Assembly: GCA_017524445.1 (NCBI GenBank)
Contig: JAFXVP010000072.1
Location: forward strand, 15,183 to 79,182
DNA from: Clostridia bacterium
GTDB taxonomy: Bacteria > Bacillota > Clostridia > Christensenellales > CAG-138
Reading direction: 5' to 3'
Length of the DNA: 64,000 nucleotides
Every line of letters starts with the position of its first letter. Position 1 is the stretch's first letter. The position numbers were made by a program, and so were the translations under genes. The notes under the pieces are model-generated. The model saw only the letters and a program-made list of their open reading frames with translations, had not been told where the DNA came from and made no database searches. This document shows, in pieces, positions 35,521 to 50,500 of this stretch.

Positions 35521-37251
35521 CTAAAGCCGGATATACGTTTTGTTCAGTCCGATCAGGCGTTTATAGTCCACGCTCGCCGCGACGGAGCGGATCATGCCGA
35601 TGTGATCCGTCGCATACGGCTCGGGCTGCTCGCAATGGTAAACGAGCGGATCAAACGGACTGCCGTCGTCGGTTACCGACAGCAGCAGATCATTTCCGGA
35701 AGCGCGGACGATCACATCAAAACGTACCGTCTTTCCGGCGGAATGTTCGATCGAATTCACCATAATCTCTTCTGCGGCGATCGCGACAAACATGGCTTTC
35801 TTTTCGTCAGCGCCGCCGCCGAGCAGCGATTTATGGATCTGCTCAACGGCCTGCGATACGGTGCTGCGGTCTGCGGAAAGCTGCAGCAGTTCCTTCGGAA
35901 GCTCCTTCGACGGTTCCTGTTTCCGGCGCACGTTTTCGATGCGGAACAGCCGTCCCTTCTCCAGGATCAGCACAGCAAGGAGCGTAAAGAGCTCCGCCGC
36001 GGAAAACGCCGTCCATACGCCGTCGATCCCCCAAATCATGCTCAAAAGCAATGCGCAAGGCACGATTGCCGCAAGCCCGTTCACCACTGAGATCACCGTT
36101 GACAGCCAACGTTTTTCCACTGCCATATAGAAATACAGCAGCAGGAAGTTCAGTGCCGTTCCCGCAAGACTGAACGCGAAAATCCGCACCGCGCGGATGA
36201 CCAGCGCACGCACGGCTTCGTCGTGCATGCCGAACAGGGATGCGATCAGATTCGACGCCGCTTCCAGCAGGATCAGCCCGACCGCCACACAGATCGCAAG
36301 CACGATCCTCGCGCGGCGAACCGCGATCCGCGCGCCGGTAAAGTCCCGTTCGCCGTAGTACACGCCGAGGATCGGGACCATGGTCTGCGCCGAGCCGGAA
36401 ATGAACATGGACATGAACATCAGGCAGTTCGTGCAGACCGAGAATGCCGCAACGCCCGTCGCGCCCTGCAGCCGCGAAACAAGGTTGTTGATGAACATGA
36501 TCTTGATCGCGACCAGTCCGACGCCGAGCGCGGTCGATACGCCGGTCTTCAGGATCATCGGGATCTCGCGAACCGCGCCTTTCAGCCGGAATTTGACGGT
36601 GCGCCGTTTGGTCAGCAGATAGAACATCGACAGTCCGAGACCGATGATGTTGGCAAGCACCGTCGCGAGCGACGCCCCTCCGATGCCCATATTGAAGAAG
36701 TGAATGAAGATCACATCAAACACAAGGTTCAGAAGATTCGCGGAAATGACCGCGATCGACGTGATCTTTACACATCCCTCGGCACGCATCAGATGGCAGA
36801 GTGCGGTCAGAAACAGCATGATCGGCGTACCCCAGACGAGGTTGCGATAGTACGCGGTGACATATTCCGTTGCCGAGGCGTCGCTGATCAGAACGCGGGC
36901 GATGCTGTTCATAAAGATCGCCTGCAGCACGGCAAACAGTACGCCCGTACCGATCACGAGCATCAGCATCGCCGTATACAGGCGGTTTGCCCGCTCGGTC
37001 TCTCTTCGTCCGAGTGCGACCGAAATGCAGCTTGCGGCGCCGAGTCCGAACAGCGCTCCGAACGTGGAGATCAGCTGCGAGATCGGAACACAGGCATGCA
37101 CCGCTGCAAGGCACGTTGTCCCGAGCAGCGAACTGACAATGATCTCATCGACAATGAACGACAGCGACGCCGACATCATGTTGAGGACCGTCGGGAAAAA
37201 GAATTCCCGGAATTTTCGGTCGATCAGTTTTCGATTGCGAATCAGTTCCAC
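35521..37251 (-). CDS. MATE-family efflux transporter fused to a C-terminal RsbW/SpoIIAB-like anti-sigma serine kinase (HATPase_c) domain
   Basis: 576 aa. GTG start with an AGGAAGGA RBS, 22 nt after the NRPS stop. The N-terminal ~440 aa form 12 hydrophobic segments typical of MATE. The C-terminus has AAEEIMVNSIEHS (N-box), VTDDGSPFDP (G1-like) and MIRSVAASVDYKRLIGLNKTYIRL. Confidence 0.7.
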   Translation of the reverse strand: MELIRNRKLIDRKFREFFFPTVLNMMSASLSFIVDEIIVSSLLGTTCLAAVHACVPISQLISTFGALFGLGAASCISVALGRRETERANRLYTAMLMLVIGTGVLFAVLQAIFMNSIARVLISDASATEYVTAYYRNLVWGTPIMLFLTALCHLMRAEGCVKITSIAVISANLLNLVFDVIFIHFFNMGIGGASLATVLANIIGLGLSMFYLLTKRRTVKFRLKGAVREIPMILKTGVSTALGVGLVAIKIMFINNLVSRLQGATGVAAFSVCTNCLMFMSMFISGSAQTMVPILGVYYGERDFTGARIAVRRARIVLAICVAVGLILLEAASNLIASLFGMHDEAVRALVIRAVRIFAFSLAGTALNFLLLYFYMAVEKRWLSTVISVVNGLAAIVPCALLLSMIWGIDGVWTAFSAAELFTLLAVLILEKGRLFRIENVRRKQEPSKELPKELLQLSADRSTVSQAVEQIHKSLLGGGADEKKAMFVAIAAEEIMVNSIEHSAGKTVRFDVIVRASGNDLLLSVTDDGSPFDPLVYHCEQPEPYATDHIGMIRSVAASVDYKRLIGLNKTYIRL

Positions 37252-37273
37252 TGTATCCTTCCTTTCTGTTCCG

Positions 37274-40200
37274 TCAGCTGAAGTATCCGAGTCCTTTCAG
37301 CGCGCGGATAAATCGGTCGATATAGTCCCATGTGGTGACCGGCCAGTTGAATCCGAGCCGGTACAGTACCTGCATGGTATATTCGTTGTGCCGCGGCATC
37401 ATGACCGTCTCCCGGCTGCCCGGCGCGTTGCGATACGCCATGATGCTCGTCAGTTCCTGCGCTTTTTTCGGATCGCTTTCCGCCTCGGCGAACGCTTTTG
37501 CAAACACGTCGCTTTCCACGGCACGGACCGGCATTCCGAGCTTGCCCATCTCGCTGAAGATCGCGTTGAACAGAACCTGCTGATGGTTGAACGCATGGAA
37601 GACGCGGCTCTCCTCCGGCGTGCGCGAAAGCGCAACGACAGCTTCGGCGACCGCATCGATCGGCGAAAACTCCATCGTCAGGTCCGCCTGTTCGTAGGAA
37701 TAGCAGCCGAGCATCTGGAATGCGTGCAGTCTGCCCATAGCGGAATTTGTCTGGAAATTGGCCTGGAATTCACCGTCCGAATAGCGCGCCGCAAGGTTGC
37801 CGAGACGGATGATCTTTGTGTGCAGCCCGTCTCTTGCGGCGGCTTCGAGCACCGCGCGCTCGGCAAGGAATTTCGAACGGACGTACTTGTTGTCCAGCAG
37901 CTGCCCGAAGTACAGCATCTGTTCGCGCACGACAAGCCCGTCTGGGATCTTGTCCTTATAGATCGACGTTACCGTGCTCATGGTGGACGTCTGTACCAGC
38001 GCCGCGCCTGTACGCTTGCAGAAGGAGATCAGGTTCCTTACGCCGCCGAGATTGACGTCCTCGAGCAGCGTACCGCTTGAGAAATGCTTGACCACGGCGG
38101 CGCAGTTGATCACCGTCTGCACCTCGCCGGGTCCGATCGGATCCAGCACATGCGCGTCGGTCACATCGCCGTCGATCGGCAGGATGCGGGTGCCGAACAG
38201 TTCTTCATAGCTGTTGTCGAAGTAGTAGAACAGCATGCCCTTGAGCCGCTTGACGGCGTCTATTCCCCGACGGCCGCGCAGCAGACAATAGATCCTGCCG
38301 GTTTCCTTTTCGATCAGTTCGTGTACCACGTGGATCCCGAGGTATCCGGTCGCGCCGGTGACCAGCACGTTTCCGAGTTCTCTGCGCGTACCCGCACGGA
38401 AGCGTTCGAGCGTATTCTCGTCAAGCAGCTTCCGGATCTCCGTATAGTCATATCCGGTGATTTCGGGATCGTCCTCCTCGACCGTCTTGACTGTGTCCGT
38501 ATCGCCGAGATGCTGTGCAAGCTCGCGCGCGGTCGGATGCGCGAACACGTCCGCGAACGAAACGGCAAGCCCCTGTTTCTGCGCGGCTATGATGACGTTT
38601 GTAACGAGCAGCGACGTACCGCCGAGCTCGAAGAAGTTCTCCTCAGCGCCGACGTCCTCGACGTGCAGCAGTTCGGAGAAGATGCGGCAGATCGCTTTTT
38701 CCGTCTCGCTTGCGGCTTTCGCGCCGTTGTCCGCACGGTAAAGCTGCGGCGCCGGCAGATTCTTGAGATCCAGTTTGCCGTTCGGCGTGATCGGCATCGC
38801 GTCGAGCTGCATATATGCGGTGGGGACCATGTAATTGGTCAGCGTTCTGCCGAGCTCCTTTTTCAGCGCGCCGATATCCACCGCGTGATCCGCCGTGAAC
38901 CATGCGCACAGATGCTCGATGCCGTTGATCTTGTCGATCTTGACCGCGCACCGCGTGATGCCCGGCACCGCGGAAAGCACCGATTCCACTTCCCCAAGCT
39001 CGATGCGCAGACCGCGCAGCTTGATCTGATTGTCCTTTCTGCCGAGGATCTCGACGTTGCCGTCCTCGGTCCACCGCGCGAAGTCGCCCGAGCAGTAAAT
39101 GCGGATCCCCTGATACGTGCGGAACCGTTCCGCCGTCATTTCGGGCAGGTTGTGATAGCCCTTTGCAACGCCCGGTCCGCCGATGTACAGCTCGCCGACG
39201 ACGCCGACGGGCACCTCGTTGCCGTCCGAATCCACAATGAACTCGGTCACGTTCAAAAGCGGCCTGCCGACCGATACGCTTGCGTCGTGCGTCAGCTCAC
39301 GGATGTTGCACGAAACCGTGATCTCCGTCGGTCCGTATGTGTTGAAGATGCGCGCGGAAAACGCCGTCTGCAGACGTTTCAGGAGACTGTCCGGATATTT
39401 TTCGCCCGCGCACACGATGATGCGGCAGCGGGACAGCGCTTCCCGGAACGCTTTCGACTCCAGCAGCGTCATCAGGCGCGACGGCGTTGCCTGGAACAGA
39501 TCGGTATTCGTCTCGGTCATGCGGACGGCGAGCGCGTTCGCGTCGTTGCATTCGTTATCGCTTGCGAGCACAAAGGTCAGGCCGTTGAACAGCGTGACGG
39601 CAAACTCCTTGACCGACATATCGAACGACAGCGTCGTGACGCCCGTGATGGTGTGCCCTTCCTCGCAATAGGCGTGCACCAGGATATTTGCCGGCGCGTC
39701 GGTCATGTAATTTACGATGCCCCGGTGCGTGAGCATAACGCCCTTCGGCTTGCCCGTAGAACCGGAGGTATAGATCAGATACGCAAGATCGTCCGGCGCG
39801 ATCGCGACGTCCGGTCTTGTTTCGTTCGGCTCCTCCAGCAGCGTTTCCGCGTCGACCGCGGGCATATCGGTGAAACGGGCGAGCCGCTCGCGGTCGGTGA
39901 TGACCAGCGACGCGCCGGAATCCTCAAGGATGTGCCGCACACGTTCGACGGGATACTTCGGATCGCACGGAATGTACGCGCAGCCCGACTTCAGCACCCC
40001 GAACAGGGAGATGATCACGCGCGAAGTCCTCGGCAGCAGCAGCACGATCTTTCCGCCCGGCCGCACGCCGCGCGCGATCAGCGCGTTGGCAACGCGGTTT
40101 GCCGCCGCGTCAAGCGCCGCATAGGTATAGCTTGCGTCGCAGGCGATCAGCGCAGGATGATCCGGCGTCTGCTTTGCAAAGCGTTCGAGCCCCGACTGAT

Positions 40201-43200
40201 ACCGTGTCTCCGGAGCGATGACGGTCGGATCGTCCACCCTGCGGAAAGCATCGATCTGTGCCTGCCGCGATTCATCGAGCAGGGAAATGCTGCGGAGCTT
40301 TCTTCTGCCGAACGCCGCGAGTTTTTCGACCGTGATCGCGTAGGAACGAACGAATTCGCGCATCAGACCTGCCGAATACAGCGCGTCGTTGTATTCAACG
40401 GCGATCTGCGGTCCTTCCTTGCCGTCCTCAATGCGTACGGTCATCTTGAATTTCGCGCGGTCGGGTTCCAGTCCCTCTGCTTTCAGTATGCCCGGGATCG
40501 CAGGTTTTTCGAGGATCCCGCGCTGGTATTCATACATGACCTGCGGGGTGAAGCCCCAGTCGGCGGCGACCTGTGCGAACGGATGGTTCTCGTGCGCGAT
40601 CGCCTGCTCGAGGCCGTCCGAAACGGTTTTGATGAATTCATCCACGGTCCCGTCGTCCAGCTTTGCGGCAAGCGGCAGCGTATTGACGAACATACCGAAC
40701 GTATCGGAGAAGCGGATATCGCTTCGTCCGCTGCTGATCGTGGCGATGTATACGTGATCGGAGGCGGTCAGCCGCGCAAGCGTATAGTCGAGCGCCGCAA
40801 GCAGGAAGCCCGCCTCGGTGACCCGGCAGCGCGTACAAGCACTTTGCAGGTCTTTTTCACGCAGCGGATGCACTGCATACGCCTTTTTGCTGCCCATGCC
40901 CTTGCCGGGGATGTCGCCGGTAAGTTCGGTTGCGGATTCATAGTCCGCAAACAGATCATTGAGATACGCCTTTGTTTCCTCCGCCTGCGTGCCTTCGAGC
41001 AGCGCTTTCTGCTCGCGGGCAAAGAACGCATACGACGCGCTTTCCCTCTCCACGGCAGCGCCGTTCAGCGCTTCTCCGAGATCCTTCAGGAAGATGTTGA
41101 ATGAGAATCCGTCGAACACAAGATGATGGAAATCGGAGAACAGCCGCACCGCGGCGGGCGTTCTGACAACCGTGAAACGGAACAGCGGACCCTGTCCGAG
41201 GCGGAACGGCATCACAAACGTTTTGCGCAGCGCCTCGCATTCCTCCTCCGTCATCTCGCGGACCGGGATCTTGTACGGTTCGGTATTTCGCACCGACGTG
41301 ACGCGATCGTTGCGGATCTCGAAGTGAACGTCAACGGACCGGTGCGCGTCGATGACGCTGCGCACGGCTGCAGCGAGCGCGTCCGGATCGGTCGACGGAT
41401 CAAAGGTCAGCACCGACGGGATATTATACGCCGTGCTGTCCGGCTCCTTCATGCAGTCCACATAGATGCCCTGCTGCGCGGCGGAAAGCTCCGCTTCGGT
41501 GATCTCCTCGGTCTGCGCGTTCTGCGCGGAAGACCCGTTCATCCATTGATCCAAAATCCGGTCTTCGATCTCGCGGATCGTGATCGTGCCGAGCTCCTTT
41601 GCGTCGAACTTGACGTCGAACCGCTTGAACAGCCACGCGGACAGCCGGATCGTGCCGAGACTTGTGAGTCCCAGCCACGCAAGCTGCGTGCCGAGCGGCG
41701 GATGCGGGGCGTTGATCGCCTGTCCAACGATCTCCCGCAGGGCTGCTTCCAGCGCGTTGTCCTCATGCGTATCGTCCTCCGCACCGACTGCGGGCAGTTC
41801 GGGCTTCGGCAGTGCGCGGCGGTTGACCTTGCCGTTCGGCGTCAGCGGAATCTTGTCAAGCTGTACGAAAGCGGCGGGGATCATATACGGCGGCTTGCGC
41901 TCTCCGATATATTGCTTCAGCGCTTCCGTGTCGATCGGCGCGTCTCCGACCACATATGCCGCAATGGATTTGCCGTCCGCGCCGAGATCGATCGCGTTGA
42001 CCGTTACGTCGCGCACTGACGGGAATTCGCGAATGACGGCTTCGATCTCGGTCAGTTCGATACGGAACCCGTGAATTTTCACCTGTCCGTCACGACGTCC
42101 GATAAACTCGATCTCGCCGTCCGAACGGTAGCGCACGATGTCGCCGGTGCGATAGGCGCGCGCCCAGATACCGCCGTCAAACGGATTGTCGATAAAGACC
42201 TCCGCCGTCTTTTCCGGACGGTTCAGGTATCCGTCGCCGACGTTCGGTCCCGCGATCAGCAGCTCGCCGATCGCGCCTGCAGGCAGCTGATGCCCGAAGG
42301 CGTCGACGACATAGCATTTGACGTTTTCAAGCGGTCTGCCGATCGGGATGTTCTCTTCCGATCTTGTCACCGGGTAGATCGTCGAAAAGATCGTGCACTC
42401 GGTCGGTCCGTAAGCGTTATAGAACGCGTACGTCTTCGGCGGCTCCATGGAAGCAAGCTTTTCGCCGCCCACCGAAAGCGCCCTCAGATACGGATTTTCC
42501 ATCTCTGCGGCGAACTGCCGTCCGACCTGCGTGGTCAAAAATGCGAGCGAAACGCGGCGCTCCGCAAAGAAGCGGTTCATCGTCTCCAGATCATAGCGCA
42601 TCTCCTCGGGAACGATGCATACCGCCGCGCCGGAACACAGCGCCGGATACATATCCATCATGCACGCGTCGAATCCGTAGGACGCATACTGTCCGACGCG
42701 GTCGAGCGGCGTCAGCGCATAGAAGCGGCGGTACCATTCGATGAACGAAACAAGGTTCGCGTGAGTCAGCCGCACCCCCTTCGGCACGCCGGTACTGCCG
42801 GACGTATAGAGCAGAATAAAGAGATCCTCCGGCTTGCAAACAGCTTTCGGCGTACCGTCCGGAAGCGCTTCGATCTCCCGAATCGTCAGCCGCCGGCCGT
42901 CGTATTCCGTGATGTGTTCGCCAAGCTCTTCTGTCGTGATCAGAAGCTTTGCCGCGGCGTCACGCACCATAAAGTTCAGGCGCTCCGCCGGATACGTGCC
43001 GTCAAGCGGCTGATAGGCGCAGCCGGCCTTGAGCGCGCCGAGGAACGTGATCGCCTGATACCGTCCGCGCGGGATCAGCACGGATACGACGTCGCCTCTG
43101 CCCAGACCGAACTGCTGCAAATGCGCGGCAAGCGCGTCCGTTCTGCGGTCAAGCTCCGAATAGGTCATCTCGCCGTCCTCGTCGATCACCGCGACGGACG

Positions 43201-46180
43201 AGCCGAACTGTTCGGCTGCCCGGTTGAACATGGAAACAACGGTCGCGCCCGTATCATAGTCAAAGGTGCGGTCGTTCCACGACGCAAGCAGCTTCCGCTG
43301 CGCTTCGCTTGCCGGCGAGATCTCGCCGACCGTCTCGCAGCGCAGCATCCGCACGAGCACGTTCTCGTAACTTTCGAGGATCGTACGGATCATTTCTTCG
43401 GAATAGAGATCGCTGCGGTATTCGGCGCGGATGTTGTAAACGCCGCCCTGCTTGTACATCTGGATCGTGATCTTCTCACCGGTCGCGTTGTCCATCAGCG
43501 GGATCCGCTCGATCGGCGTACCGGAAAATCCGCCGACGTTCAGCACGTCACCCTGATACACAAACAGCAGATCGCTGGTCACGCCGGTCTCCGCGGCCAG
43601 ATCGGCGAACGGATACGCGTCGTGCGCCATGCAGCCGAGCATCTGTGCCTTCGCGTTTTCGAGGTATGTGACGATCGGCATCTGTGCGTCGAACGAGGAC
43701 CACACCGGCAGCGTCCGCACCAGCATAGCCACCGTCCGCGCGGTGCGCAGGGAATCACGCCCGTTATAGATCGTTGCGAACAGGGCTTCTTTCGCGCCGG
43801 AGAACAGCCCCGCGCAAAGGCCGAACGCGGCTGTTGCGTAGATGTTTTCGGTAACGCCCGCCTCCCGGCAGAACGCCTCGGCTTCCACCGCTTCCAGCGC
43901 AAGCGCACGCTCAACCGTTCCGAACGACGGCGTCGGCTCGTAACGGTCACGGATCGGCAGACTGTCGAGATCAAGCGCGCCGAAGATGTTCAGATACCAG
44001 TCTTTTGATTCGTCATAGCTCTTTGCGCGCTTTTCCGCCTCGTCCTCCGCCACCTCGAAACCGCCGTAGCGCTCCGTCTCCGGCGTTTCGCCGTTGTATG
44101 CGCGTTCCAGATCGTTGAGCAGCACCAGCATGGAGGAGCCGTCGAAAATGATGTGATGGAAATCCATGAACAGATAGGTCGTCCGTTCCGTCCGGATGAC
44201 GCGAATGCGGAACAGGCGGTCCTTCAGAAGTCGGAACGGCTGCATCAGCTTCGGCTGCAGCGCCGCAAACTGCGCCTCCGTCATTTGTTCGACCGCCTGT
44301 GTATACGGTTCTTCGTCGTTGCGGTTCTGCCACGGGTTGCCCTCCGTGTCCACCGTAATACGCATCTTGATGAACGGATGCGCCGTCACCGCCGCTTCGA
44401 CCGCACGGCACAGACGTCCCGGTTCGATCGTCGGATCGAGCTTCAGCAAAATCGGATTGTTGTAAACCGCTTCCCCGTCATGCTGCATCGACGCGACATA
44501 GATGCCGATCTGTGCGTCGGACAGCGGATAACGGTCCTTCTTTTCGCGCAGCTTTGCCTTGCCGCTGCCGATGAGAAGCGCGGCGATCGCACGCGGCGTT
44601 CTTGCCGCATAGATCTGTTTGGTCGTAAGATCCAGTTCCGGGCATGCCGTTGCAAGCTTCATGACACGGATGCTGTCGCCGCCCAGCCGGAAGAAATCAT
44701 CGTCGATCCCGATCGGACGGACGCCGAGACTCTCCTCAAACGCACGGCACAGCAGCGCTTCCGTTTCGTTTTCAGGCGCGGCATAGTCCGCGCGCTGCTC
44801 CGCAAAGTCGGGATCCGGCAGAGACTTGCGATCCTCCTTGCCGTTACTGTTCAGCGGCAGTGTGTCAAGATGCACATAAACAGACGGAACCATGTAGGCG
44901 GCAAGCCGCTTTTCGAGCGCGGCGCGGATCACCTCTTCGGTCTGCGTCCCGGTAAACCATGCGCACAGGAGCGTCTGCCCGTCCGGTGAACGAACGCCCT
45001 TGACGACCGCGGTGTCGACGCCGTCGACCTCGCGCATTGCCATTTCGATCTCGCCCGGTTCTACGCGCTGCCCGTTGATCTTCAGCATCCAGTCCTTGCG
45101 GTTGATGTACACCAGATTCCCGTCCGGCAATTCTTTCAGAATGTCGCCCGTATGCAGCCAGCCGTCGCGATAGAGCTTTGCGGTTGCGTCCGGATCCTTG
45201 AAATATCCCTTTGTAAAGACGCCGCGGACGCACATTTCCCCTTCCTCGCCCTTCGGAACGGGGTTGCCGTCTTCGCCGAGGATGCACCACTCGATGTGCT
45301 CCTTCGGAATGCCGACCGGCGTCGTTTCGAACGGCTGTTCCACAAGATAGGCGCACAGCGTGCCGAGCGTTTCGCTCATACCGTAGTTGTTCCAGAGCTT
45401 ATAACCGTCCTTGCCGTACTGCCCGGTCAACCGCTCGCTGCCGGTAAACACGAGTCCGAGCGTAGTCGAACGGTTGTGGAAATTCCGAAGTACGGCGGGA
45501 CTGATAAACGCTACCGTGATGCCGTGCCGCTCGATATAATCCTCCAGAAGGCGCACGTCGCGGTTCGTTTCATGGCTGATCAGATGCACCGTACCGCCGC
45601 CCATCAGTACCTTAAAGACCGACATGCCTGCGACAAAATAGAACGGCGCCCCCATTGCCCATACCGCGGACGGTCCGTACGAGCCCGTGAACGCCTTCGG
45701 GAGCGTGAACTTTAGCCCCGCAAACGAATGCAGGATGCCCTTCGGCGCGCCTGTGGAGCCGGACGTATATAAAAGGATCGCCGTATCATCGTCGGTCGAT
45801 TCCGGGCAGAGCGCCGGATCGACCGGTTCGCACGCAAGGATCTCTTCGAGCGCGGTTTCGTCGATGATGAACGGCGCGTCGCAATGCAGCGAGATATACC
45901 GCACACGCTCCTGCGGAAAGGTATCCCCCATCGGCACGGCGATGTGTCCGGCAAGCAGGACGCCAACTTCCACAGCGGCATATTCCATCGATGCAGGCAA
46001 ACGGATCGGAATGAACGCGCGTTCCGAAAGCCCTTTTTCGAGCAGCCATGCCGCGGTCTTCCGAACAAGCGTGCCGAAGGTGCGATAATCGGTGCGGCGC
46101 GTTCCGTTTCTGTCGCAGATCGCAACCGAATCCGCAAAGGTCTCGGTCGCGGTCAGAATCTTTTCGAGATACAGGTGCAT
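37274..46180 (-). CDS. Trimodular non-ribosomal peptide synthetase, A-T-C-A-T-C-A-T-R (terminal thioester reductase)
   Basis: 2968 aa, RBS AGGAGG. Three A-domain cores (LLYTSGSTGAPKG, LLYTSGSTGVPKG, LIYTSGSTGKPKG). Carrier motifs FFRLGGDSI, GLTSLGT, FFELGGTSL. Two condensation motifs (HHIIFDGSS, HHLVFDGFS). C-terminal SDR-type reductase VLVTGATGYLGIHV (encoded near 38330-38375) continuing to the stop. Confidence 0.9.
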   Translation of the reverse strand: MHLYLEKILTATETFADSVAICDRNGTRRTDYRTFGTLVRKTAAWLLEKGLSERAFIPIRLPASMEYAAVEVGVLLAGHIAVPMGDTFPQERVRYISLHCDAPFIIDETALEEILACEPVDPALCPESTDDDTAILLYTSGSTGAPKGILHSFAGLKFTLPKAFTGSYGPSAVWAMGAPFYFVAGMSVFKVLMGGGTVHLISHETNRDVRLLEDYIERHGITVAFISPAVLRNFHNRSTTLGLVFTGSERLTGQYGKDGYKLWNNYGMSETLGTLCAYLVEQPFETTPVGIPKEHIEWCILGEDGNPVPKGEEGEMCVRGVFTKGYFKDPDATAKLYRDGWLHTGDILKELPDGNLVYINRKDWMLKINGQRVEPGEIEMAMREVDGVDTAVVKGVRSPDGQTLLCAWFTGTQTEEVIRAALEKRLAAYMVPSVYVHLDTLPLNSNGKEDRKSLPDPDFAEQRADYAAPENETEALLCRAFEESLGVRPIGIDDDFFRLGGDSIRVMKLATACPELDLTTKQIYAARTPRAIAALLIGSGKAKLREKKDRYPLSDAQIGIYVASMQHDGEAVYNNPILLKLDPTIEPGRLCRAVEAAVTAHPFIKMRITVDTEGNPWQNRNDEEPYTQAVEQMTEAQFAALQPKLMQPFRLLKDRLFRIRVIRTERTTYLFMDFHHIIFDGSSMLVLLNDLERAYNGETPETERYGGFEVAEDEAEKRAKSYDESKDWYLNIFGALDLDSLPIRDRYEPTPSFGTVERALALEAVEAEAFCREAGVTENIYATAAFGLCAGLFSGAKEALFATIYNGRDSLRTARTVAMLVRTLPVWSSFDAQMPIVTYLENAKAQMLGCMAHDAYPFADLAAETGVTSDLLFVYQGDVLNVGGFSGTPIERIPLMDNATGEKITIQMYKQGGVYNIRAEYRSDLYSEEMIRTILESYENVLVRMLRCETVGEISPASEAQRKLLASWNDRTFDYDTGATVVSMFNRAAEQFGSSVAVIDEDGEMTYSELDRRTDALAAHLQQFGLGRGDVVSVLIPRGRYQAITFLGALKAGCAYQPLDGTYPAERLNFMVRDAAAKLLITTEELGEHITEYDGRRLTIREIEALPDGTPKAVCKPEDLFILLYTSGSTGVPKGVRLTHANLVSFIEWYRRFYALTPLDRVGQYASYGFDACMMDMYPALCSGAAVCIVPEEMRYDLETMNRFFAERRVSLAFLTTQVGRQFAAEMENPYLRALSVGGEKLASMEPPKTYAFYNAYGPTECTIFSTIYPVTRSEENIPIGRPLENVKCYVVDAFGHQLPAGAIGELLIAGPNVGDGYLNRPEKTAEVFIDNPFDGGIWARAYRTGDIVRYRSDGEIEFIGRRDGQVKIHGFRIELTEIEAVIREFPSVRDVTVNAIDLGADGKSIAAYVVGDAPIDTEALKQYIGERKPPYMIPAAFVQLDKIPLTPNGKVNRRALPKPELPAVGAEDDTHEDNALEAALREIVGQAINAPHPPLGTQLAWLGLTSLGTIRLSAWLFKRFDVKFDAKELGTITIREIEDRILDQWMNGSSAQNAQTEEITEAELSAAQQGIYVDCMKEPDSTAYNIPSVLTFDPSTDPDALAAAVRSVIDAHRSVDVHFEIRNDRVTSVRNTEPYKIPVREMTEEECEALRKTFVMPFRLGQGPLFRFTVVRTPAAVRLFSDFHHLVFDGFSFNIFLKDLGEALNGAAVERESASYAFFAREQKALLEGTQAEETKAYLNDLFADYESATELTGDIPGKGMGSKKAYAVHPLREKDLQSACTRCRVTEAGFLLAALDYTLARLTASDHVYIATISSGRSDIRFSDTFGMFVNTLPLAAKLDDGTVDEFIKTVSDGLEQAIAHENHPFAQVAADWGFTPQVMYEYQRGILEKPAIPGILKAEGLEPDRAKFKMTVRIEDGKEGPQIAVEYNDALYSAGLMREFVRSYAITVEKLAAFGRRKLRSISLLDESRQAQIDAFRRVDDPTVIAPETRYQSGLERFAKQTPDHPALIACDASYTYAALDAAANRVANALIARGVRPGGKIVLLLPRTSRVIISLFGVLKSGCAYIPCDPKYPVERVRHILEDSGASLVITDRERLARFTDMPAVDAETLLEEPNETRPDVAIAPDDLAYLIYTSGSTGKPKGVMLTHRGIVNYMTDAPANILVHAYCEEGHTITGVTTLSFDMSVKEFAVTLFNGLTFVLASDNECNDANALAVRMTETNTDLFQATPSRLMTLLESKAFREALSRCRIIVCAGEKYPDSLLKRLQTAFSARIFNTYGPTEITVSCNIRELTHDASVSVGRPLLNVTEFIVDSDGNEVPVGVVGELYIGGPGVAKGYHNLPEMTAERFRTYQGIRIYCSGDFARWTEDGNVEILGRKDNQIKLRGLRIELGEVESVLSAVPGITRCAVKIDKINGIEHLCAWFTADHAVDIGALKKELGRTLTNYMVPTAYMQLDAMPITPNGKLDLKNLPAPQLYRADNGAKAASETEKAICRIFSELLHVEDVGAEENFFELGGTSLLVTNVIIAAQKQGLAVSFADVFAHPTARELAQHLGDTDTVKTVEEDDPEITGYDYTEIRKLLDENTLERFRAGTRRELGNVLVTGATGYLGIHVVHELIEKETGRIYCLLRGRRGIDAVKRLKGMLFYYFDNSYEELFGTRILPIDGDVTDAHVLDPIGPGEVQTVINCAAVVKHFSSGTLLEDVNLGGVRNLISFCKRTGAALVQTSTMSTVTSIYKDKIPDGLVVREQMLYFGQLLDNKYVRSKFLAERAVLEAAARDGLHTKIIRLGNLAARYSDGEFQANFQTNSAMGRLHAFQMLGCYSYEQADLTMEFSPIDAVAEAVVALSRTPEESRVFHAFNHQQVLFNAIFSEMGKLGMPVRAVESDVFAKAFAEAESDPKKAQELTSIMAYRNAPGSRETVMMPRHNEYTMQVLYRLGFNWPVTTWDYIDRFIRALKGLGYFS

Positions 46181-46207
46181 GATGGGAACCTCCTGAATAA
46201 GTATCTT

Positions 46208-46849
46208 TTACGGTTCATATTGTTCCGTTCGTCCCGGAAAGGGATCATAAGGCGAACAAACAGTCAGTACATGATCGTCAATCGATCGGGTGAAAAAGCG
46301 AAGCGACACGCAGTCATAGCGCGCACACCGGGCGACGACACGCGTTCCGAATGAAACACGGATCTCCTTAGGATCGAGCGAAAGTCCCGTCCCGAACAGC
46401 TTCATCAGACTCTCTTTCACGGTCCACAGCGCCGTATAAAAGCGCTCCCGATCGCCGTCCGGCGCAGCGGCAAGCTCTTCCGGCAGAAACACGCGGCGCA
46501 GCACGTCCTCTTCGAACGGACGGATCGGCTCCACGTCAATGCCGACCGGCTTATCGGACACCGCGATCGCCGCAATGCGTCCGCCGTGCGACAGGTTGAA
46601 CCAGATATCGTCACGATCGCGAAGGTACGGCTTTCCGTACGGCCCATACGCGATCTCCGCGTTTGGAACGCCTGCCCGTTTCAATCCCTCGCAAAGCAGA
46701 AGTCCCGCGCAGAGCGACAGCCGCCGGTCCCGTTCAAACCGGAACGACCGGATTTTTTGCTGACGTTCGGAAGGCATGCTGTCAAACGCGCGGCTGAACG
46801 TTCCCGGATCGGAAACCGCGTCCGCATACATCCACAGCACCACGTTCAT
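46208..46849 (-). CDS. Sfp-type 4'-phosphopantetheinyl transferase
   Basis: 213 aa, RBS AAGGAGG. GKPYLRD...FNLSHGG...VGIDVEPI...WTVKESLMKLFGTG are the PPTase motifs. 27 nt upstream of the NRPS. Confidence 0.85.
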   Translation of the reverse strand: MNVVLWMYADAVSDPGTFSRAFDSMPSERQQKIRSFRFERDRRLSLCAGLLLCEGLKRAGVPNAEIAYGPYGKPYLRDRDDIWFNLSHGGRIAAIAVSDKPVGIDVEPIRPFEEDVLRRVFLPEELAAAPDGDRERFYTALWTVKESLMKLFGTGLSLDPKEIRVSFGTRVVARCARYDCVSLRFFTRSIDDHVLTVCSPYDPFPGRTEQYEP

Positions 46850-46899
46850 GCCGACCTCCTTCGTCCGGGCGGATCGCCAAAATATATTCTTTCGAGTAT

Positions 46900-46928
46900 A
46901 TTATACAATCTAAAACGAACGGCGACAA
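46900..46928 (-). promoter_or_regulatory. Promoter of the PPTase-NRPS-MATE operon
   Basis: Minus strand: TTGTCG (46928-46923), 17-nt spacer, TATAAT (46905-46900), about 50 nt upstream of the PPTase start. Confidence 0.5.
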
Positions 46929-47026
46929 GAACTATTCTTCTTTTTCTTTCACATGATTATTTTATGGCACGATGTGGCGTTTTTTCCGGCGCGGCGAATA
47001 GCGGATAACGGTTATGAACAGCATTT

Positions 47027-47062
47027 AACCTCTTTTGACCAATCAGTCAAAAGAGGTTAATA
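47027..47062. promoter_or_regulatory. Perfect 15-bp inverted repeat (TTAACCTCTTTTGAC-caatca-GTCAAAAGAGGTTAA), operator-like
   Basis: Read directly from the sequence. No flanking T-run on either strand, so it is unlikely to be a terminator. It lies ~100 nt upstream of the NRPS-operon promoter. Confidence 0.5.
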
Positions 47063-47104
47063 TCTATGTATCAAAATAAGCGTCCCAATACGGAAAATCA
47101 CAGT

Positions 47105-47166
47105 GATTTTGATACAAATGCACCCACGACAAAATCCGGGTGCATCTTTGGATTATGGGTGCATCC
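47105..47166. repeat. REP-like hairpin repeat, copy B
   Basis: attttgatacaaATGCACCCacgacaaaatCCGGGTGCATctttggattatgggtgcatcc parallels 61514-61575. Confidence 0.75.
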
Positions 47167-47192
47167 TAAGCGAAATCTCATCTGATTATGTG

Positions 47193-47322
47193 ATCAGGGC
47201 CCGGAATAATGCCGCTTTTCGGCAAATGCAATCAGAGATAAAGCAGGGCGAAGCCAAATGGCTTCGCCCTGCTGCTTTGTGCGCTTTAACGCTTATCCTT
47301 TGTTGATCGTGTCGGGATCGTA
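47193..47322. repeat. Direct repeat, right copy (degenerate remnant of SpoIIE 3-prime end + terminator hairpin + intact 3-prime end of the small-peptide gene)
   Basis: See 35372-35495. Here gatcagggcccggaataa mimics the SpoIIE terminal codons ..tatcggggcgcggaataa, while the peptide-gene end is intact. Confidence 0.85.
47242..47273 (-). terminator. Strong hairpin terminator ending the ABC / giant-protein / peptide operon
   Basis: AGCAGGGCGAAGCC-aaat-GGCTTCGCCCTGCT, a 14-bp perfect stem. It starts 20 nt after the peptide stop and is followed on the minus strand by TTATCTCTGATT. Confidence 0.7.
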
Positions 47323-47466
47323 GTCATGCTCGTCAACGGGCGGGACCTCGTCCCATTCGCCAGCGCCGGTGATCTTCTTGAGATCCTCGAACGCGACTTC
47401 TTCCGGTTCGATCTTCATTTCTTCGGCGACCGCTTCCGGTGCCTTCTTTTCCTTCTTGCGTTCCAT
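47293..47466 (-). CDS. 57-aa precursor peptide with double-glycine-type leader (absent from the ORF track)
   Basis: Hand translation: MERKKEKKAPEAVAEEMKIEPEEVAFEDLKKITGA|GEWDEVPPVDEHDYDPDTINKG. RBS AAAGGAG 8 nt before the ATG at 47466. It lies 46 nt downstream of the giant gene and is followed by a strong terminator. V-xxx-DL-xx-I-x-GA matches the leader consensus recognised by C39 peptidase ABC exporters. Confidence 0.6.
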   Translation of the reverse strand: MERKKEKKAPEAVAEEMKIEPEEVAFEDLKKITGAGEWDEVPPVDEHDYDPDTINKG

Positions 47467-47512
47467 TTTGTATGCTCCTTTCTTTTCGGATTGCTTATTT
47501 CAGTTCAACCGT

Positions 47513-50500
47513 TTACGGCTGCTGTACGGGGAACACGTTAATCAGACCGACCACGTAGCGCAGGATCGCCGCCGCGTCCGCCGCGGTAACGCTGCCGTCG
47601 CCGTCGACTTCCGCATTCAGTGCGCCGCGCTTTGTGATCGTCGACAGTCCGACGATTGAGCGCAGGACGATTGCCGCGTCTGCTGCCGTGATATATCCGT
47701 CGACATTCGCGTCGCCGTACAGGATCGCTTCGAAGGTGATGCTGCCGTCCGTTGTCGCTGCTGTCAGTTCAACGACCGTTCCCTCTGTTGCAAATCCCAT
47801 TGCGCTGCCGTTTCCGAGCGTGTTTTCGGTGAACGTGATGTCCGTCTTCTCCGCTTCGCCGATCTTGGCGAACCAGAGCGTCAGCACTTCGTCGCCGTTC
47901 TCAACAAGCTGTTCGGTTTCGGACGCCCAGACTGCGGAGAGCTTGCCGTTCTGATCGTTGACCGTCCAGTCAAATGCACCTTCCGTCTTGCGTAGCACGA
48001 GGACCGCGGGATCATACTCGAGGAAGATCTGCGCGCTGCTCACATAGGAGCCGCCCTCCGGCAGATCCTCAACGTGTACGTCGTAGCGATACAGGATCTC
48101 GCCGTCGATGATCTCGTATTCGTCGTTGCCGACGACGTCTTCGCCGGCGAACGTCACGGCAGTCGGCGCTTCGGGCTGCGGCTTGGGCGTGACGGTGATC
48201 GTTGCCTGTACCGTCGTACCGGTTGCTACATGCGTCGCGTAGAGCGTCGTTGTGCCTCCGCCGATACCGAGCACCTTGCCGTCGCTGATCTGCGCGATTT
48301 CGAGGTCCTCGACCGTATATGCTACTTCGGCGCTGTTGCCGAACTTGCTGCCGAGATCCATTGCAAAGACGATATCCGCGGTTTCATCTTCCTTGACCAT
48401 GACGTCCTCGAGCGTCATGTTCATCGGCTGCGTCTGCACAAAGCAGTCATATGCAATGTCGCCGATGAATTGACGACCGGTGTAGTCGATATCATCATAG
48501 GTCTCGACGTATTCTCTCGTGACGGCGAACGAAGCGTCGATGAAGCCGTAGCGCTGCACCATTTCGATCGTGACCGGGACTGCGACGTCGATCTCGCGGG
48601 TCTCGCCCGGCTGGATCGGCGTCTCGAACGGCACGTGTACCAGCGTAAGCGCATCTTCGTCGACATCCATGATCAGGTTCTCGGGGCCCTTCCAATCGAT
48701 CGTCAGCATGTCGCCCGCATCGGACGGCGCGTTGCCGACGTTGGTGATCTCGAACGAGGCACGGAAGCCGTCGTTGGTCTGATAGGTCACGATGTTCTCA
48801 ATGCGGTAATCCGGATCGGAAAGCAGGGGCTCGGAGACGTACTCCGCCGTGTTGGTAAAGTAGACGCCCTCCTCCTTGAGCTCCTTCGTGACCGCCTTGA
48901 ACGTCAGTCCTTCAACGTTGTCGGGCATCGTATACGCGAATTCGTGGATCCTTGCGTTGTTCGGACGCAGCGCATCGGTCGATTCGATCGTGCCGATCTG
49001 CGTTTCGGTTCCGTTCTTATCCACCGCATACAGCGTCAGCATATAGCCCGGCGCCGTGGTCAGACCGTTGTTGGACGCCTTGACTGTGATGACGGTATCC
49101 TCGCCGCCGATCGGATGATCGAGCGTCAGAGCGGATGCCTCGCCGTCCTCGTTGGGCTGCCGGATTTCGATCTCCTCGGGTTCGACTGCGCCGCAGGGCT
49201 CCATCACGGTCGCAGCCAGCGTCATTTCGGTGATCACAAGCGGGTCAAAGTCGACTTCGCCGTTGTAGTTGATGCCGTCCTCGGCAGGGGTATCCGTCTC
49301 CGGAATGACCAGCTCCTGCCTGAAGCGGTTGTGGACCACCATGAGGTTCTCGCCCGTCATGGTGACGGCGAGCTCGTCGTTGAAGTATCCGTCTCTGGTG
49401 AGCTGATACGGCTTCGACCAGCCGGTGCTGCCGAGATCTGCGTCGGGCGCGTCGGCCTCCTCGTCGGTCAACACCCTGCCGCTGGAGATCAGGCTCGTTG
49501 CAAAGATCTCCTGCGAAACGGCCGCGTTCTCATCCGCCGGATCGCCGTCGACAACGGTGTCGGTCCAAAGAATGAACAAGCTGCCGTTGGCGTCCTCGAC
49601 CACGCGGTAGTCTGCGGACTGTCTGGATTCGTTGCCGTCCTTGGGTCTCAAACCGGTCTCGATGGGATCCGCGTAGGTCGAATCGCCGCCGTCGCCCTTG
49701 ATCTTCAGCGTGCCGTCCGGATTGATGCCCTGCTGCATAAGCTGCGTGACGTCGATGTAGACGACGCCTTTGTTGTCGCGGTACCAGAACAGCTTGGTGT
49801 GCGTCGCTTCCTCCTCCGTGCTGAGCTGCGCGTCCCTGGAGCGGAAGAACTGCGGCAGCGTGTCCGCCACGTTGTCGTCGGTGATGCGGATACGGTACTT
49901 CGTCTCATGCTGCTCGAAGTTGTAGACCTGCAGATACAGCTCCTTGTCTTCGTAGGTGTCGTTGCTGCCGTCCATATCCACGGTGTAGGCATAGACCGCA
50001 AGACCGTTGTAGCCGATCGCCGTGAAGTCCGGGATCGCATATGCGACCGTGCTGCCGTTCTCATCCGTGTACGTCGGACCTGCCAGCGAGCGCTGACCGC
50101 CGAAGTTTTCGATCATGTACTGTTCGTTTTCAAGATTGCCGTGGAACTCGGCAAAGTAGAAGTTGTTGAAGAGCCACCCTTCGGGAACCACTCTGCCGTC
50201 CGTATCGACGTCCTCTTCCGCGTTGTAGATCATGTAGAACACGCGGCAGTCATTGACGTACGGGTTCGCGAGCGTCGCGCCGTCCATGGTGGTGTTGCCG
50301 CTCTTGACGTAGTAGACGATCGCGTCGCCGCTGATCTTGTCGCAGACTACGGTCGGCATGCAGTCGTAATAGCCCTTCTCGACGCCGTCCTTGATGCGAT
50401 GGTCGTTGGTGATCTTGACCGGCTCGTCCATCGTGATCGAACCGTCCTCGCCGATTGTCGCAAGCGCCGCATAGACTTCCATGCTGTTCAGGTAGTCCGT

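What the first reader, a model, noticed from the sequence alone, without database searches (positions are those of the whole stretch)
37274..46180. Trimodular NRPS ending in a thioester reductase: predicted tripeptide aldehyde (or derived cyclic imine/pyrazinone-type) product
The domain order A-T-C-A-T-C-A-T-R was read from core motifs. There is no starter C domain, epimerase or TE. Reductive release gives a C-terminal aldehyde. Gut Clostridia NRPSs with terminal R domains are known to make protease-inhibiting peptide aldehydes and pyrazinones (Guo et al. 2017), though the ones I recall are dimodular. The operon is compact (PPTase, NRPS, MATE fusion) with its own promoter.
Basis: partly seen in the sequence, partly recalled or inferred. 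Interest (0 to 1): 0.6.

Follow-up and report, generated by a model that had tools for sequence, protein, structure and literature searches.

The report
Capped dipeptide-aldehyde synthetase from rumen bacterium
This is a real, intact three-module peptide-making enzyme that ends in a reductase, but its first module almost certainly loads a non-amino acid (probably a 2-oxo acid), so the likely product is a capped dipeptide aldehyde (a protease-inhibitor type molecule) made by a gene family that is widespread in ruminant gut microbes and has no known product.

Summary
ORF 37274..46180 (minus strand, 2968 aa) is an intact NRPS with domain order A-T-C-A-T-C-A-T-R, and all catalytic motifs and the three carrier serines are present. 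A PPTase gene lies upstream and a MATE exporter gene downstream.

- **Module 1 is not an amino-acid module.** A1 has Val in place of the amino-binding Asp235. It has Met in place of the A5 proline (NNYGMSET). It also scores below the curated cut-off for amino-acid adenylation domains. Both substitutions recur in about 100 homologues.
- **These are the published hallmarks of 2-oxo-acid activation.** They also fit other carboxylic acids that lack an alpha-amino group.
- **C1 corresponds to a starter condensation domain.** It is the counterpart of the N-terminal C domain in dimodular C-A-T-C-A-T-R relatives.
- **Predicted product:** an N-(2-oxo)acyl-Xaa-Yaa aldehyde, not a tripeptide or pyrazinone. 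Xaa is hydrophobic and Leu-like. Yaa sits in a Lys239 pocket and is probably Glu-like, as in ruminopeptin.

The source is a ruminant-gut Clostridia MAG. Relatives occur in 425 species-level genomes across several phyla. The closest solved structure is the PCP-R didomain of Methanobrevibacter ruminantium Mru_0351, whose product is unknown. A partner-switching set (STAS, PP2C, and a kinase fused to the MATE exporter) is conserved next to the NRPS. I rate this a new variant of a known kind, of moderate interest.

The parts
46900..46928 (-). Promoter-like site (TTGTCG-17-TATAAT) upstream of the PPTase gene
   Evidence: 10 of 12 matches. The site count for the region equals the shuffle expectation, so this is only plausible. 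The RBS GAAGGAGG is seen.
46208..46849 (-). Sfp-type 4'-phosphopantetheinyl transferase (213 aa)
   Evidence: Pfam ACPS 3.1e-16 and AASDHPPT_N 3.3e-9. It ends 27 nt before the NRPS start.
37274..46180 (-). NRPS, 2968 aa, A*-T-C-A-T-C-A-T-R
44801..46180 (-). A1 (aa 1-460): adenylation domain for an acid without an alpha-amino group. Code V-A-(S)-F-F-G-N-G-T-K; A4 motif FYFVAGMS; A5 motif NNYGMSET
44561..44773 (-). T1 carrier domain, Ser503 (GGDS)
43256..44539 (-). C1 (aa 548-975), HHIIFDG. Counterpart of the starter C of dimodular relatives
41771..43228 (-). A2 (aa 985-1470), code DAMFSGAIFK (hydrophobic, Leu-like)
41537..41749 (-). T2 carrier domain, Ser1507 (GLTS)
40253..41500 (-). C2 (aa 1561-1976), HHLVFDG
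38741..40189 (-). A3 (aa 1998-2480), code DMKQVATVSK (Lys239 pocket; predicted acidic, Glu-like substrate)
38507..38695 (-). T3 carrier domain, Ser2523 (GGTS)
37277..38371 (-). R (aa 2604-2968): SDR-type thioester reductase, TGATGYLG and Y2766-x3-K2770
   Evidence: Pfam NAD_binding_4 1.2e-30. The T3-R region matches PDB 6VTJ (Mru_0351 PCP-R) at E 5e-102 and AusA R at 7e-43.
35521..37251 (-). MATE efflux pump fused to a C-terminal HATPase_c_2 (RsbW/SpoIIAB-like kinase) domain, 576 aa
   Evidence: The C-terminal 150 aa alone score 30.7 bits (cut-off 27.4), and 10 of 10 fusion homologues match the family. The ATP-binding N-box and DxG residues are invariant.
35423..35450 (.). Bidirectional hairpin terminator between the MATE fusion and the convergent PP2C gene
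33985..35388 (+). Membrane sensor (5TMR-LYT) fused to a SpoIIE/PP2C phosphatase, 467 aa. Probable regulator; its family is conserved next to this NRPS family
33417..33713 (-). STAS-domain anti-sigma-factor antagonist, 98 aa. Probable regulator; its family is conserved next to this NRPS family
47193..47323 (-). Upstream copy of the ~130-bp direct repeat that brackets the cassette
35372..35500 (-). Downstream copy of the ~130-bp direct repeat

Best explanation
The operon makes and exports an N-capped dipeptide aldehyde. The steps below are inferred from domain order, motifs and homology; none was tested biochemically.

1. The PPTase converts the three carrier domains to their holo form.
2. A1 adenylates a carboxylic acid that has no alpha-amino group and loads it on T1. 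A 2-oxo acid is the best single candidate. There is no ketoreductase, so a keto group would be kept.
3. C1, the counterpart of a starter-type condensation domain, joins this acyl group to the amino group of a hydrophobic, Leu-like residue loaded by A2 on T2.
4. C2 extends the chain with the residue loaded by A3 on T3. The A3 pocket carries Lys239, which points to an acidic, Glu-like side chain.
5. The R domain uses NAD(P)H to reduce the thioester and release R-CO-Xaa-Yaa-H, an electrophilic protease-inhibitor type molecule in the ruminopeptin, nostosin and spumigin class.
6. The MATE pump exports the product.
7. The kinase domain fused to the pump, the STAS protein and the sensor-PP2C phosphatase probably form a partner-switching circuit that controls production or export.
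For: Architecture and intact motifs.

A1 is atypical. TIGR01733 gives 199 bits, below the 317 cut-off, and this is about equal to its 188 bits against a fatty-acid-CoA ligase model. A2 and A3 give 404 and 392 bits. Aligned to GrsA, whose sequence I checked against PDB 1AMU, A1 reads V-A-(S)-F-F-G-N-G-T-K, A2 reads DAMFSGAIFK and A3 reads DMKQVATVSK.

The A1 substitutions are conserved. Across 106 trimodular homologues at 45-68% identity, A1 keeps [V/I]-A at positions 235/236 in 103 and most often has YGM[ST]E in A5, with intact A3, A7 and A10 motifs. A2 and A3 keep FD.. and YGPTE.

Published criteria match. 2-oxo-acid A domains replace Asp235 with a hydrophobic residue and the A5 Pro with Met (StsA I306 and G414-M415; the M415P mutant is inactive). 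[quoted passage not shown]

Module correspondence. C1 matches the N-terminal C of a 2416-aa C-A-T-C-A-T-R relative better than it matches that protein's internal C. A2, A3 and R align colinearly at 57%, 53% and 48%.

No KR or dehydrogenase is conserved in 80 related loci.

Release chemistry. [quoted passage not shown] A family member, ruminopeptin, is described as an N-acylated Leu-Glu aldehyde.

Accessory genes. MATE, PP2C and STAS are found in 59, 54 and 61 of 80 related loci. The kinase is fused either to MATE or to PP2C. The same set of genes was noted beside the M. ruminantium NRPSs.
Against: No biochemical data exist for any trimodular member. The substrate of A1 is inferred from two residues.

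The YGM[ST]E motif is also the ordinary A5 motif of acyl- and aryl-CoA ligases (my own knowledge). It therefore argues for 'no alpha-amino group' rather than for a keto group specifically.

Known 2-oxo-acid modules normally carry a KR domain, and this one does not.

A1 is not especially close in sequence to any solved keto-acid A domain. Its best PDB matches are LgrA and TycA.

McyG, which has Val at position 235, can adenylate L-Phe in vitro.

The Glu assignment for A3 rests on Lys239 and on the ruminopeptin analogy. I could not obtain the rup sequence to compare codes.

Sequence cannot tell whether R stops at the aldehyde or continues to the alcohol.

The R domain scores 146.5 bits against TIGR01746, below its 213 cut-off.
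Confidence: 0.6

Rival explanations
1. The cap is a carboxylic acid other than a 2-oxo acid. Candidates include a branched or short-chain fatty acid, phenylacetate, 3-phenylpropionate or a 2-hydroxy acid, all of which I know to be abundant in rumen fluid. The product would then be a plain N-acyl dipeptide aldehyde like ruminopeptin, with the acyl group chosen by A1 instead of a starter C domain drawing on acyl-CoA or acyl-ACP.
For: A1 scores as well against a long-chain-fatty-acid-CoA ligase model (188 bits) as against the amino-acid adenylation model (199 bits). YGM[ST]E is the usual A5 motif of CoA ligases (my own knowledge). McyG, a loading domain that the review describes as selecting hydrophobic substrates, also has Val at position 235. 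No KR domain is present. Dimodular relatives carry a starter C that presumably uses acyl thioesters.
Against: Val/Ile235 together with Met325 is exactly the pair described for 2-oxo-acid selection. A1 at about 460 aa has no extra length that could hold the insertion typical of fatty-acyl-AMP ligases; I did not test this directly.
Confidence: 0.3
2. All three modules load amino acids and the product is a tripeptide aldehyde, which may cyclise to an imine or pyrazinone-type compound.
For: The domain order A-T-C-A-T-C-A-T-R is formally a three-module assembly line. One A domain with Val at position 235 (McyG) adenylates L-Phe in vitro. Three relatives of about 3010-3060 aa (P0113, P0119, P0120) do carry three Asp235-type A domains.
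Against: Asp235 is missing in A1 here and in 103 of 106 trimodular homologues. The A5 proline is missing in A1 here, and YGM[ST]E is by far the commonest A5 motif in those domains. A1 fails the curated amino-acid adenylation cut-off. C1 corresponds to a starter C domain.
Confidence: 0.07
3. The assembly is the same, but R carries out a four-electron reduction, so the released product is an N-capped dipeptide alcohol rather than an aldehyde.
For: R domains of this fold can give either outcome, and sequence rules that separate them are not established. The product of the closest solved homologue, Mru_0351, is unknown.
Against: Apart from Mru_0351, whose product is unknown, the closest solved R domain is that of AusA, which forms an aldehyde. 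Gut relatives are reported to release dipeptide aldehydes.
Confidence: 0.1

Closest known systems
Gut-microbiota NRPS family with a terminal R domain (Guo et al. 2017, Cell 168:517), including the Ruminococcus bromii rup pathway and ruminopeptin (Schneider & Balskus 2018)
   Same: The terminal A-T-R and the small cluster with a PPTase and an exporter are shared. Both are restricted to gut habitats. The released products are dipeptide aldehydes that inhibit proteases, and ruminopeptin is an N-acylated Leu-Glu aldehyde. Modules 2-3 and R here align colinearly at 45-61% identity with dimodular C-A-T-C-A-T-R relatives.
   Different: This gene has an extra N-terminal A*-T didomain that loads a non-amino acid in cis, instead of relying on a starter C alone. 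The source is a ruminant-gut MAG. I could not read either paper or obtain their sequences, so direct orthology to the published clusters is untested.
Methanobrevibacter ruminantium M1 NRPS Mru_0351 (PCP-R structure, PDB 6VTJ)
   Same: It is the best solved match to T3-R (E 5e-102, aligned over 475 residues). It comes from the rumen. A MatE gene is adjacent, and genes for phosphatase, anti-sigma antagonist and kinase accompany the NRPS genes in that genome. Four-module relatives in my hit list, which may or may not be close to Mru_0351, also start with an A domain that lacks Asp235.
   Different: Mru_0351 has four modules and about 4187 aa, and is archaeal. Its product is unknown.
Spumigin, aeruginosin and nostosin assembly lines of cyanobacteria
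   Same: The logic is the same. A loading module activates an aryl 2-oxo acid, amino-acid modules follow, and a terminal R gives a C-terminal aldehyde. Nostosin A is 2-hydroxyacyl-Ile-argininal, that is, a cap plus two residues.
   Different: Their loading module is A-KR-T, so the cap is reduced to a 2-hydroxy acid, whereas no KR is present here. Their P1 residue is argininal. I did not compare sequences, so no specific relationship is established.
2-oxo-acid-activating A domains (StsA, CesA, PksJ)
   Same: Asp235 is replaced by Val or Ile, and the A5 Pro by Met. As I recall, PksJ also begins A(keto acid)-T-C-A-T.
   Different: The pocket code differs: VGMWNG.S.K in those domains against V-A-x-F-F-G-N-G-T-K here. 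None of them appears among the best PDB matches of A1. The resemblance is limited to the diagnostic residues and may be convergent.
AusA (aureusimine/phevalin synthetase of Staphylococcus aureus)
   Same: It has an A-T-C-A-T-R core, and its R domain is the second-best solved homologue (E 7e-43).
   Different: The NCBIfam AusA equivalog scores (87-341 bits per domain) are far below its 2500-bit cut-off. AusA has two amino-acid modules, a free N-terminus, and a pyrazinone product.

Membership tests
Nonribosomal peptide synthetase ending in a thioester reductase | Ordered A, T and C domains with intact core motifs and carrier serines | tested here: met
   Pfam finds 3 A, 3 T and 2 C. Motifs and Ser503, Ser1507 and Ser2523 are read.
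Nonribosomal peptide synthetase ending in a thioester reductase | C-terminal SDR-type R domain with a Rossmann GxxGxxG motif and catalytic Tyr/Lys | tested here: met
   NAD_binding_4 at 1.2e-30. TGATGYLG and YVRSK are present. PDB 6VTJ matches at 5e-102. TIGR01746 scores 146.5, below its 213 cut-off.
Gut NRPS family that releases dipeptide aldehydes (Guo 2017; rup/ruminopeptin) | Two amino-acid modules followed by R, colinear with family members | tested here: met
   C1-A2-T2-C2-A3-T3-R aligns colinearly with 2416-aa C-A-T-C-A-T-R relatives. An extra A*-T didomain precedes it.
Gut NRPS family that releases dipeptide aldehydes (Guo 2017; rup/ruminopeptin) | Sequence orthology to the published clusters | not tested
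   Neither paper nor its sequences were available.
Gut NRPS family that releases dipeptide aldehydes (Guo 2017; rup/ruminopeptin) | The product is a peptide aldehyde | not testable with these tools
   Needs expression and mass spectrometry.
2-oxo-acid-activating adenylation domains | Asp235 replaced by a hydrophobic residue | tested here: met
   Val here, and Val or Ile in 103 of 106 trimodular homologues.
2-oxo-acid-activating adenylation domains | The A5 proline (GrsA P325) replaced by Met | tested here: met
   NNYGMSET here, and YGM[ST]E as by far the commonest A1 motif in the family. This feature is not specific, because CoA ligases share the motif.
2-oxo-acid-activating adenylation domains | An associated ketoreductase domain (A-KR-T) | tested here: not met
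   A1 is about 460 aa with no insertion. No conserved KR is found in 80 loci.
2-oxo-acid-activating adenylation domains | Adenylation of a 2-oxo acid in vitro | not testable with these tools
   Needs an ATP-PPi exchange or loading assay.
Amino-acid adenylation domain (TIGR01733), applied to A1 | Score above the curated cut-off and an Asp235/Lys517 pair | tested here: not met
   199 bits against a 317 cut-off. Asp235 is absent and Lys517 is present.
AusA aureusimine synthetase (NF047350) | Equivalog score of at least 2500 | tested here: not met
   The best per-domain scores are 87-341 bits.
Partner-switching module (RsbW/RsbV/RsbU type) | A HATPase_c_2 kinase, a STAS antagonist and a PP2C phosphatase encoded together | tested here: met
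   The set is conserved in related loci. No sigma factor gene was seen beside it, so its output is unknown.

The most novel reading that the evidence does not exclude
The trimodular form is a distinct subfamily, undescribed in anything I could search, that is spread through ruminant-gut microbes. A dedicated KR-less A*-T didomain would install an unreduced 2-oxoacyl cap. The product would then carry two electrophilic warheads, an N-terminal alpha-ketoamide and a C-terminal aldehyde. Its output would be controlled after translation by a partner-switching circuit whose kinase is physically fused to the exporter, a form of NRPS/export control I have not seen described.
Probability: 0.15. Interest if true: 0.7.

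Novelty: new variant of a known kind. Interest (0 to 1): 0.45.

Why it matters
NRPSs that end in a reductase are among the most common biosynthetic genes in gut anaerobes. Their peptide-aldehyde products inhibit proteases. This family occurs in hundreds of ruminant-gut species across bacterial phyla and has relatives in a rumen methanogen, whose NRPS products have been unknown since 2010.

The analysis gives a concrete prediction that can be synthesised and tested: a cap lacking an alpha-amino group, then a Leu-like residue, then an acidic-residue aldehyde. That makes it possible to ask whether these molecules target Glu-specific or other microbial proteases. Such targeting would bear on rumen protein breakdown and nitrogen efficiency.

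It also corrects a likely automated mis-prediction. A pipeline that counts three A domains and does not inspect the specificity code could call this a tripeptide.

The exporter-kinase fusion with STAS and PP2C partners is a tractable case for studying how export of a reactive metabolite is regulated.

Tried and rejected
- **Second NRPS.** I suspected that the neighbouring 2941-aa ORF (47513..56338) was a second trimodular NRPS. It is not: Pfam finds DUF7507, Calx-beta and dockerin.
- **Solved keto-acid A domain.** I looked for a specific relationship between A1 and a solved keto-acid A domain. The PDB searches returned LgrA and TycA as best matches, and StsA was not in the top 60. The engineered phenyllactate-selective TycA variant scored only marginally above wild type, which is not meaningful.
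- **Aromatic 2-oxo-acid code.** I recalled a V-A-E-F-S-G-G-A-C-K code from Wackler et al. 2012, which would resemble V-A-x-F-x-G here. I could not find it in the accessible papers. It remains a lead from memory only.
- **Key papers.** Guo 2017 and Schneider & Balskus 2018 are not held in the library. A literature search for the A-T-C-A-T-C-A-T-R architecture in gut or rumen bacteria found nothing relevant, and no product is reported for Mru_0351.
- **Trans-acting KR.** I searched 80 related loci for a conserved trans-acting KR or dehydrogenase, and dimodular loci for a stand-alone A*-T. Neither was found.
- **Leader RNA.** No Rfam family matches in 33000..47600.
- **Organism names.** The cluster-member look-up for cultured hosts returned no names.
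- **Cross-phylum transfer.** The identity matrix on the shared region groups mostly by phylum. Transfer between phyla is therefore not demonstrated by these data. What the matrix shows is gain or loss of the A*-T didomain within phyla.
Full report

Yes. A single ORF on the minus strand, 37274..46180, encodes 2968 aa. Pfam finds three AMP-binding, three PP-binding and two Condensation stretches. It also finds a C-terminal NAD_binding_4/Epimerase region at aa 2605-2865. There is no thioesterase and no further C/E-type stretch.

The sequence shows the following motifs:
- carrier serines at 503 (GGDS), 1507 (GLTS) and 2523 (GGTS);
- HHIIFDG at 675 and HHLVFDG at 1685 in the two C domains;
- TGATGYLG at 2609 and YVRSK at 2766 in the R domain.

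Repeats with about 3-kb spacing at the A3 and A10 core motifs show the three modules at DNA level.

A PPTase gene (46208..46849) ends 27 nt before the NRPS. A 576-aa MATE fusion (35521..37251) starts 22 nt after it. A promoter-like site and an RBS precede the PPTase, and hairpin terminators bracket the operon. The region holds no more promoter-like sites than shuffled sequence does, so the promoter is only plausible.

The identical protein is on record from a MAG annotated 'Clostridia bacterium'. It lies on a ruminant gastro-intestinal metagenome scaffold with the same gene calls. The window has about 60% G+C.

**2. The first module is not an amino-acid module.**

NCBIfam's amino-acid adenylation model TIGR01733 has a cut-off of 317 bits. 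It gives 404 bits for A2 and 392 for A3, but only 199 for A1. A1 scores about the same (188 bits) against a long-chain-fatty-acid-CoA ligase model.

I aligned the three A domains to GrsA-PheA. I had recalled that sequence from memory and confirmed it as essentially identical (one mismatch, at residue 2, over residues 1-556) to PDB 1AMU. The specificity positions are:
- A1: V-A-(S)-F-F-G-N-G-T-K
- A2: DAMFSGAIFK
- A3: DMKQVATVSK

In A1 the Asp235 that binds the substrate's alpha-amino group is Val (FYFVAGMS). The A5 motif NxYGPTE reads NNYGMSET.

These are not decay. Of 106 trimodular homologues at 45-68% identity, 103 have A1 with [V/I]-A at positions 235/236. YGM[ST]E is by far the commonest A5 motif in those domains, and the A3, A7 and A10 catalytic motifs are intact. 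A2 and A3 keep FD.. and YGPTE.

Published work names exactly these two changes as the marks of 2-oxo-acid selection:
- In StsA the Asp is replaced by Ile306 and the conserved Pro by Met415, and the M415P mutant is inactive (review PMC11253843).

One caveat comes from my own knowledge. YGM[ST]E is also the normal A5 motif of acyl- and aryl-CoA ligases. McyG, a loading domain that the review describes as selecting hydrophobic substrates, also has Val at position 235. The safe conclusion is therefore that A1 loads a carboxylic acid without an alpha-amino group. A 2-oxo acid is the best single candidate.

No KR domain is present. A1 is about 460 aa. No KR or dehydrogenase is conserved in 80 related loci. 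A keto group, if present, would be retained.

**3. What the relatives show.**

The protein search found over 100 clusters of proteins of about 2975 aa with the same architecture, and 14 four-module relatives. A scan of one genome per species found 425 loci. Of the 80 fetched, nearly all are ruminant-gut or rumen MAGs. They come from Lachnospiraceae, Ruminococcus, Oscillospiraceae, Prevotella and other Bacteroidales, Muribaculaceae, Eggerthellaceae/Coriobacteriaceae and Synergistales.

Many of the Bacteroidales genes are shorter. One example of 2416 aa is C-A-T-C-A-T-R. Compared with it:

| Domain here | Best counterpart in the dimodular gene | Identity |
|---|---|---|
| C1 | N-terminal C (271 bits; 154 bits to its internal C) | 34% (27% to internal C) |
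| A2 | first A | 57% |
| C2 | second C | 36% |
| A3 | second A | 53% |
| R | R | 48% |

So the trimodular enzyme equals the dimodular one plus an N-terminal A*-T loading didomain. C1 is the counterpart of a starter C domain. On the shared region the sequences group roughly by phylum, and both architectures occur within each group. This implies repeated gain or loss of the A*-T didomain. No stand-alone A*-T is encoded beside the dimodular genes.

**4. The two amino acids and the release step.**

The penultimate A domain is nearly constant in the family (DAMFSGx[IV]xK). This is a hydrophobic pocket.

The terminal A domain falls into classes:
- Lys239 class: DMKN[ML]GTVSK, DFKGIGTVSK, and DMKQ[VI]ATVSK as here
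- Arg299 class: DAQSRGCVAK, DAHSRGTVSK
- acidic pockets: DAEGTGVDDK, DAEQEGSVEK
- hydrophobic: DAMFSGGIFK

This is the pattern expected if the aldehyde residue (P1) is varied to aim at different proteases. A cationic residue in the pocket points to an acidic substrate. The classic Glu code DAKDLGVVDK, which I recall from memory, also has Lys239. Ruminopeptin of R. bromii is described as an N-acylated Leu-Glu aldehyde (PMC8518294; PMC12327764). I therefore predict Leu-like then Glu-like, with moderate confidence.

T3-R is most similar to the solved PCP-R didomain of Methanobrevibacter ruminantium Mru_0351 (PDB 6VTJ, E 5e-102), and next to the aldehyde-forming AusA R (E 7e-43). The product of Mru_0351 is unknown. 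Whether R stops at the aldehyde cannot be read from sequence.

**5. Mechanism proposed.**

The PPTase primes T1-T3. A1 loads the acid cap. C1 forms the amide to the A2 residue. C2 adds the A3 residue. R releases R-CO-Xaa-Yaa-H with NAD(P)H. The MATE pump exports it.

Shown here: the architecture, the motifs, the conservation, and the correspondence to dimodular relatives. Inferred: the substrates, aldehyde release, and export.

With no free N-terminal amine, cyclisation to a pyrazinone or imine is unlikely.

The closest chemical analogues are cyanobacterial. Nostosin A is 2-hydroxyacyl-Ile-argininal. The spumigins and aeruginosins have a loading module, AerA (A-KR-T), that activates (hydroxy)phenylpyruvate, and their last module ends in R.

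**6. Accessory genes.**

The MATE protein carries a C-terminal HATPase_c_2 domain (RsbW/SpoIIAB-type kinase). The C-terminal 150 aa alone score 30.7 bits against a 27.4 cut-off. All 10 fusion homologues tested match the family. The ATP-binding N-box and DxG residues are invariant.

A STAS protein (33417..33713) and a 5TMR-LYT-SpoIIE/PP2C phosphatase (33985..35388) lie next to it.

In 80 related loci, MATE, PP2C and STAS are present in 59, 54 and 61. Many of those loci are truncated. The kinase is fused either to MATE (16 loci, all outside the Prevotella-type group) or to a Cache-SpoIIE protein (the two Bacteroidales examples I examined). Leahy et al. 2010 listed the same kinds of genes beside the M. 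ruminantium NRPSs.

I saw no sigma factor gene beside the set. I think the circuit controls export or production, but its output is unknown.

**7. Comparison and novelty.**

The general kind is known: a gut NRPS that ends in R and makes a capped dipeptide aldehyde. The A*-T loading didomain without a KR, conserved across about 100 protein clusters, is not described in anything I could search. I could not read the two key papers. I therefore rate this a new variant of a known kind.

Interest is moderate. A specialist would not be astonished. But the prediction is specific and cheap to test. It concerns a very widespread rumen gene family and the long-unknown methanogen NRPS products.

**8. Confidence.**

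| Claim | Confidence |
|---|---|
| Capped dipeptide aldehyde, any non-amino acid cap | about 0.6 |
| The cap is a 2-oxo acid | about 0.4 |
| True tripeptide | about 0.07 |
| Alcohol release instead of aldehyde | about 0.1 |

Noticed in passing
window 47193..47323 and 35372..35500 (both read on the minus strand): A direct repeat of about 130 bp at about 90% identity brackets the PPTase-NRPS-MATE cassette, with 11,821 bp between copies. Each copy holds the last ~27 nt of a small-peptide coding sequence, a strong hairpin terminator and about 60 nt more. The upstream copy follows the intact peptide gene. The downstream copy follows the MATE stop and keeps only the peptide tail. This looks like a Campbell-type insertion or a duplication of the terminator region. 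The STAS and PP2C genes lie outside the repeats.
   Followed up: partly
window 47293..47466 (-): A 57-aa ORF, also called as a gene in the public record: MERKKEKKAPEAVAEEMKIEPEEVAFEDLKKITGAG-EWDEVPPVDEHDYDPDTINKG. It has a leader resembling the double-glycine type and a very acidic tail. It lies downstream of two ABC exporters, one with a C39 peptidase domain (56416..60795). It may be an exported peptide unrelated to the NRPS.
   Followed up: no
window 47513..56338 (-): A 2941-aa protein with Calx-beta, DUF7507 and a C-terminal dockerin. It is a giant surface or cellulosome-associated protein, not an NRPS, despite having nearly the same length as its neighbour.
   Followed up: partly
window 35521..37251 (-); loci L002, L003, L006, L007, L008, L011, L012, L018, L019, L028, L034, L036, L043, L058, L080, L082: A MATE exporter fused to an RsbW-like HATPase_c_2 kinase domain is conserved at 587-626 aa (longer stop-to-stop ORFs in L058 and L033). 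It usually lies within a few nucleotides of the NRPS gene. In the two Bacteroidales loci I examined (L067, L019) a kinase domain is fused to a Cache-SpoIIE phosphatase (738 and 753 aa). In the dimodular loci MATE is a plain protein of about 445 aa. L019 also keeps the MATE-kinase fusion. I am not aware of a described exporter-kinase fusion of this kind.
   Followed up: partly
loci L013-L079 and proteins P0001-P0120: The terminal A-domain codes fall into discrete classes: Lys239, Arg299, acidic pocket and hydrophobic. The penultimate A domain is nearly constant. This suggests a family of inhibitors with a variable P1 residue.
   Followed up: partly
proteins P0035, P0046, P0047, P0087, P0088, P0091, P0099, P0101, P0102, P0104, P0109, P0111, P0118: Relatives of about 3900-4035 aa with four A domains, one from a Selenomonas sp. 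record (KH1T6, not labelled a MAG), also start with an A domain that lacks Asp235 and the A5 proline. The acid-loading start is therefore shared by the three- and four-module forms. I did not test whether Mru_0351 does the same.
   Followed up: no
L067 8600..9958 (+), and 30 dimodular loci: A protein of about 455 aa with a weak Alginate_exp (outer-membrane channel) match is conserved between the STAS gene and the dimodular NRPS, only in the dimodular loci. It may be an outer-membrane exit for the product. L019 has instead a 451-aa ORF with a weak AMP-binding match downstream of its trimodular NRPS.
   Followed up: no
L082 12990..14485 (-): The locus of the closest relative (68% identity) carries a stand-alone 329-aa Condensation-domain protein and a carboxylesterase beside its PPTase. 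Both are absent from this window.
   Followed up: no
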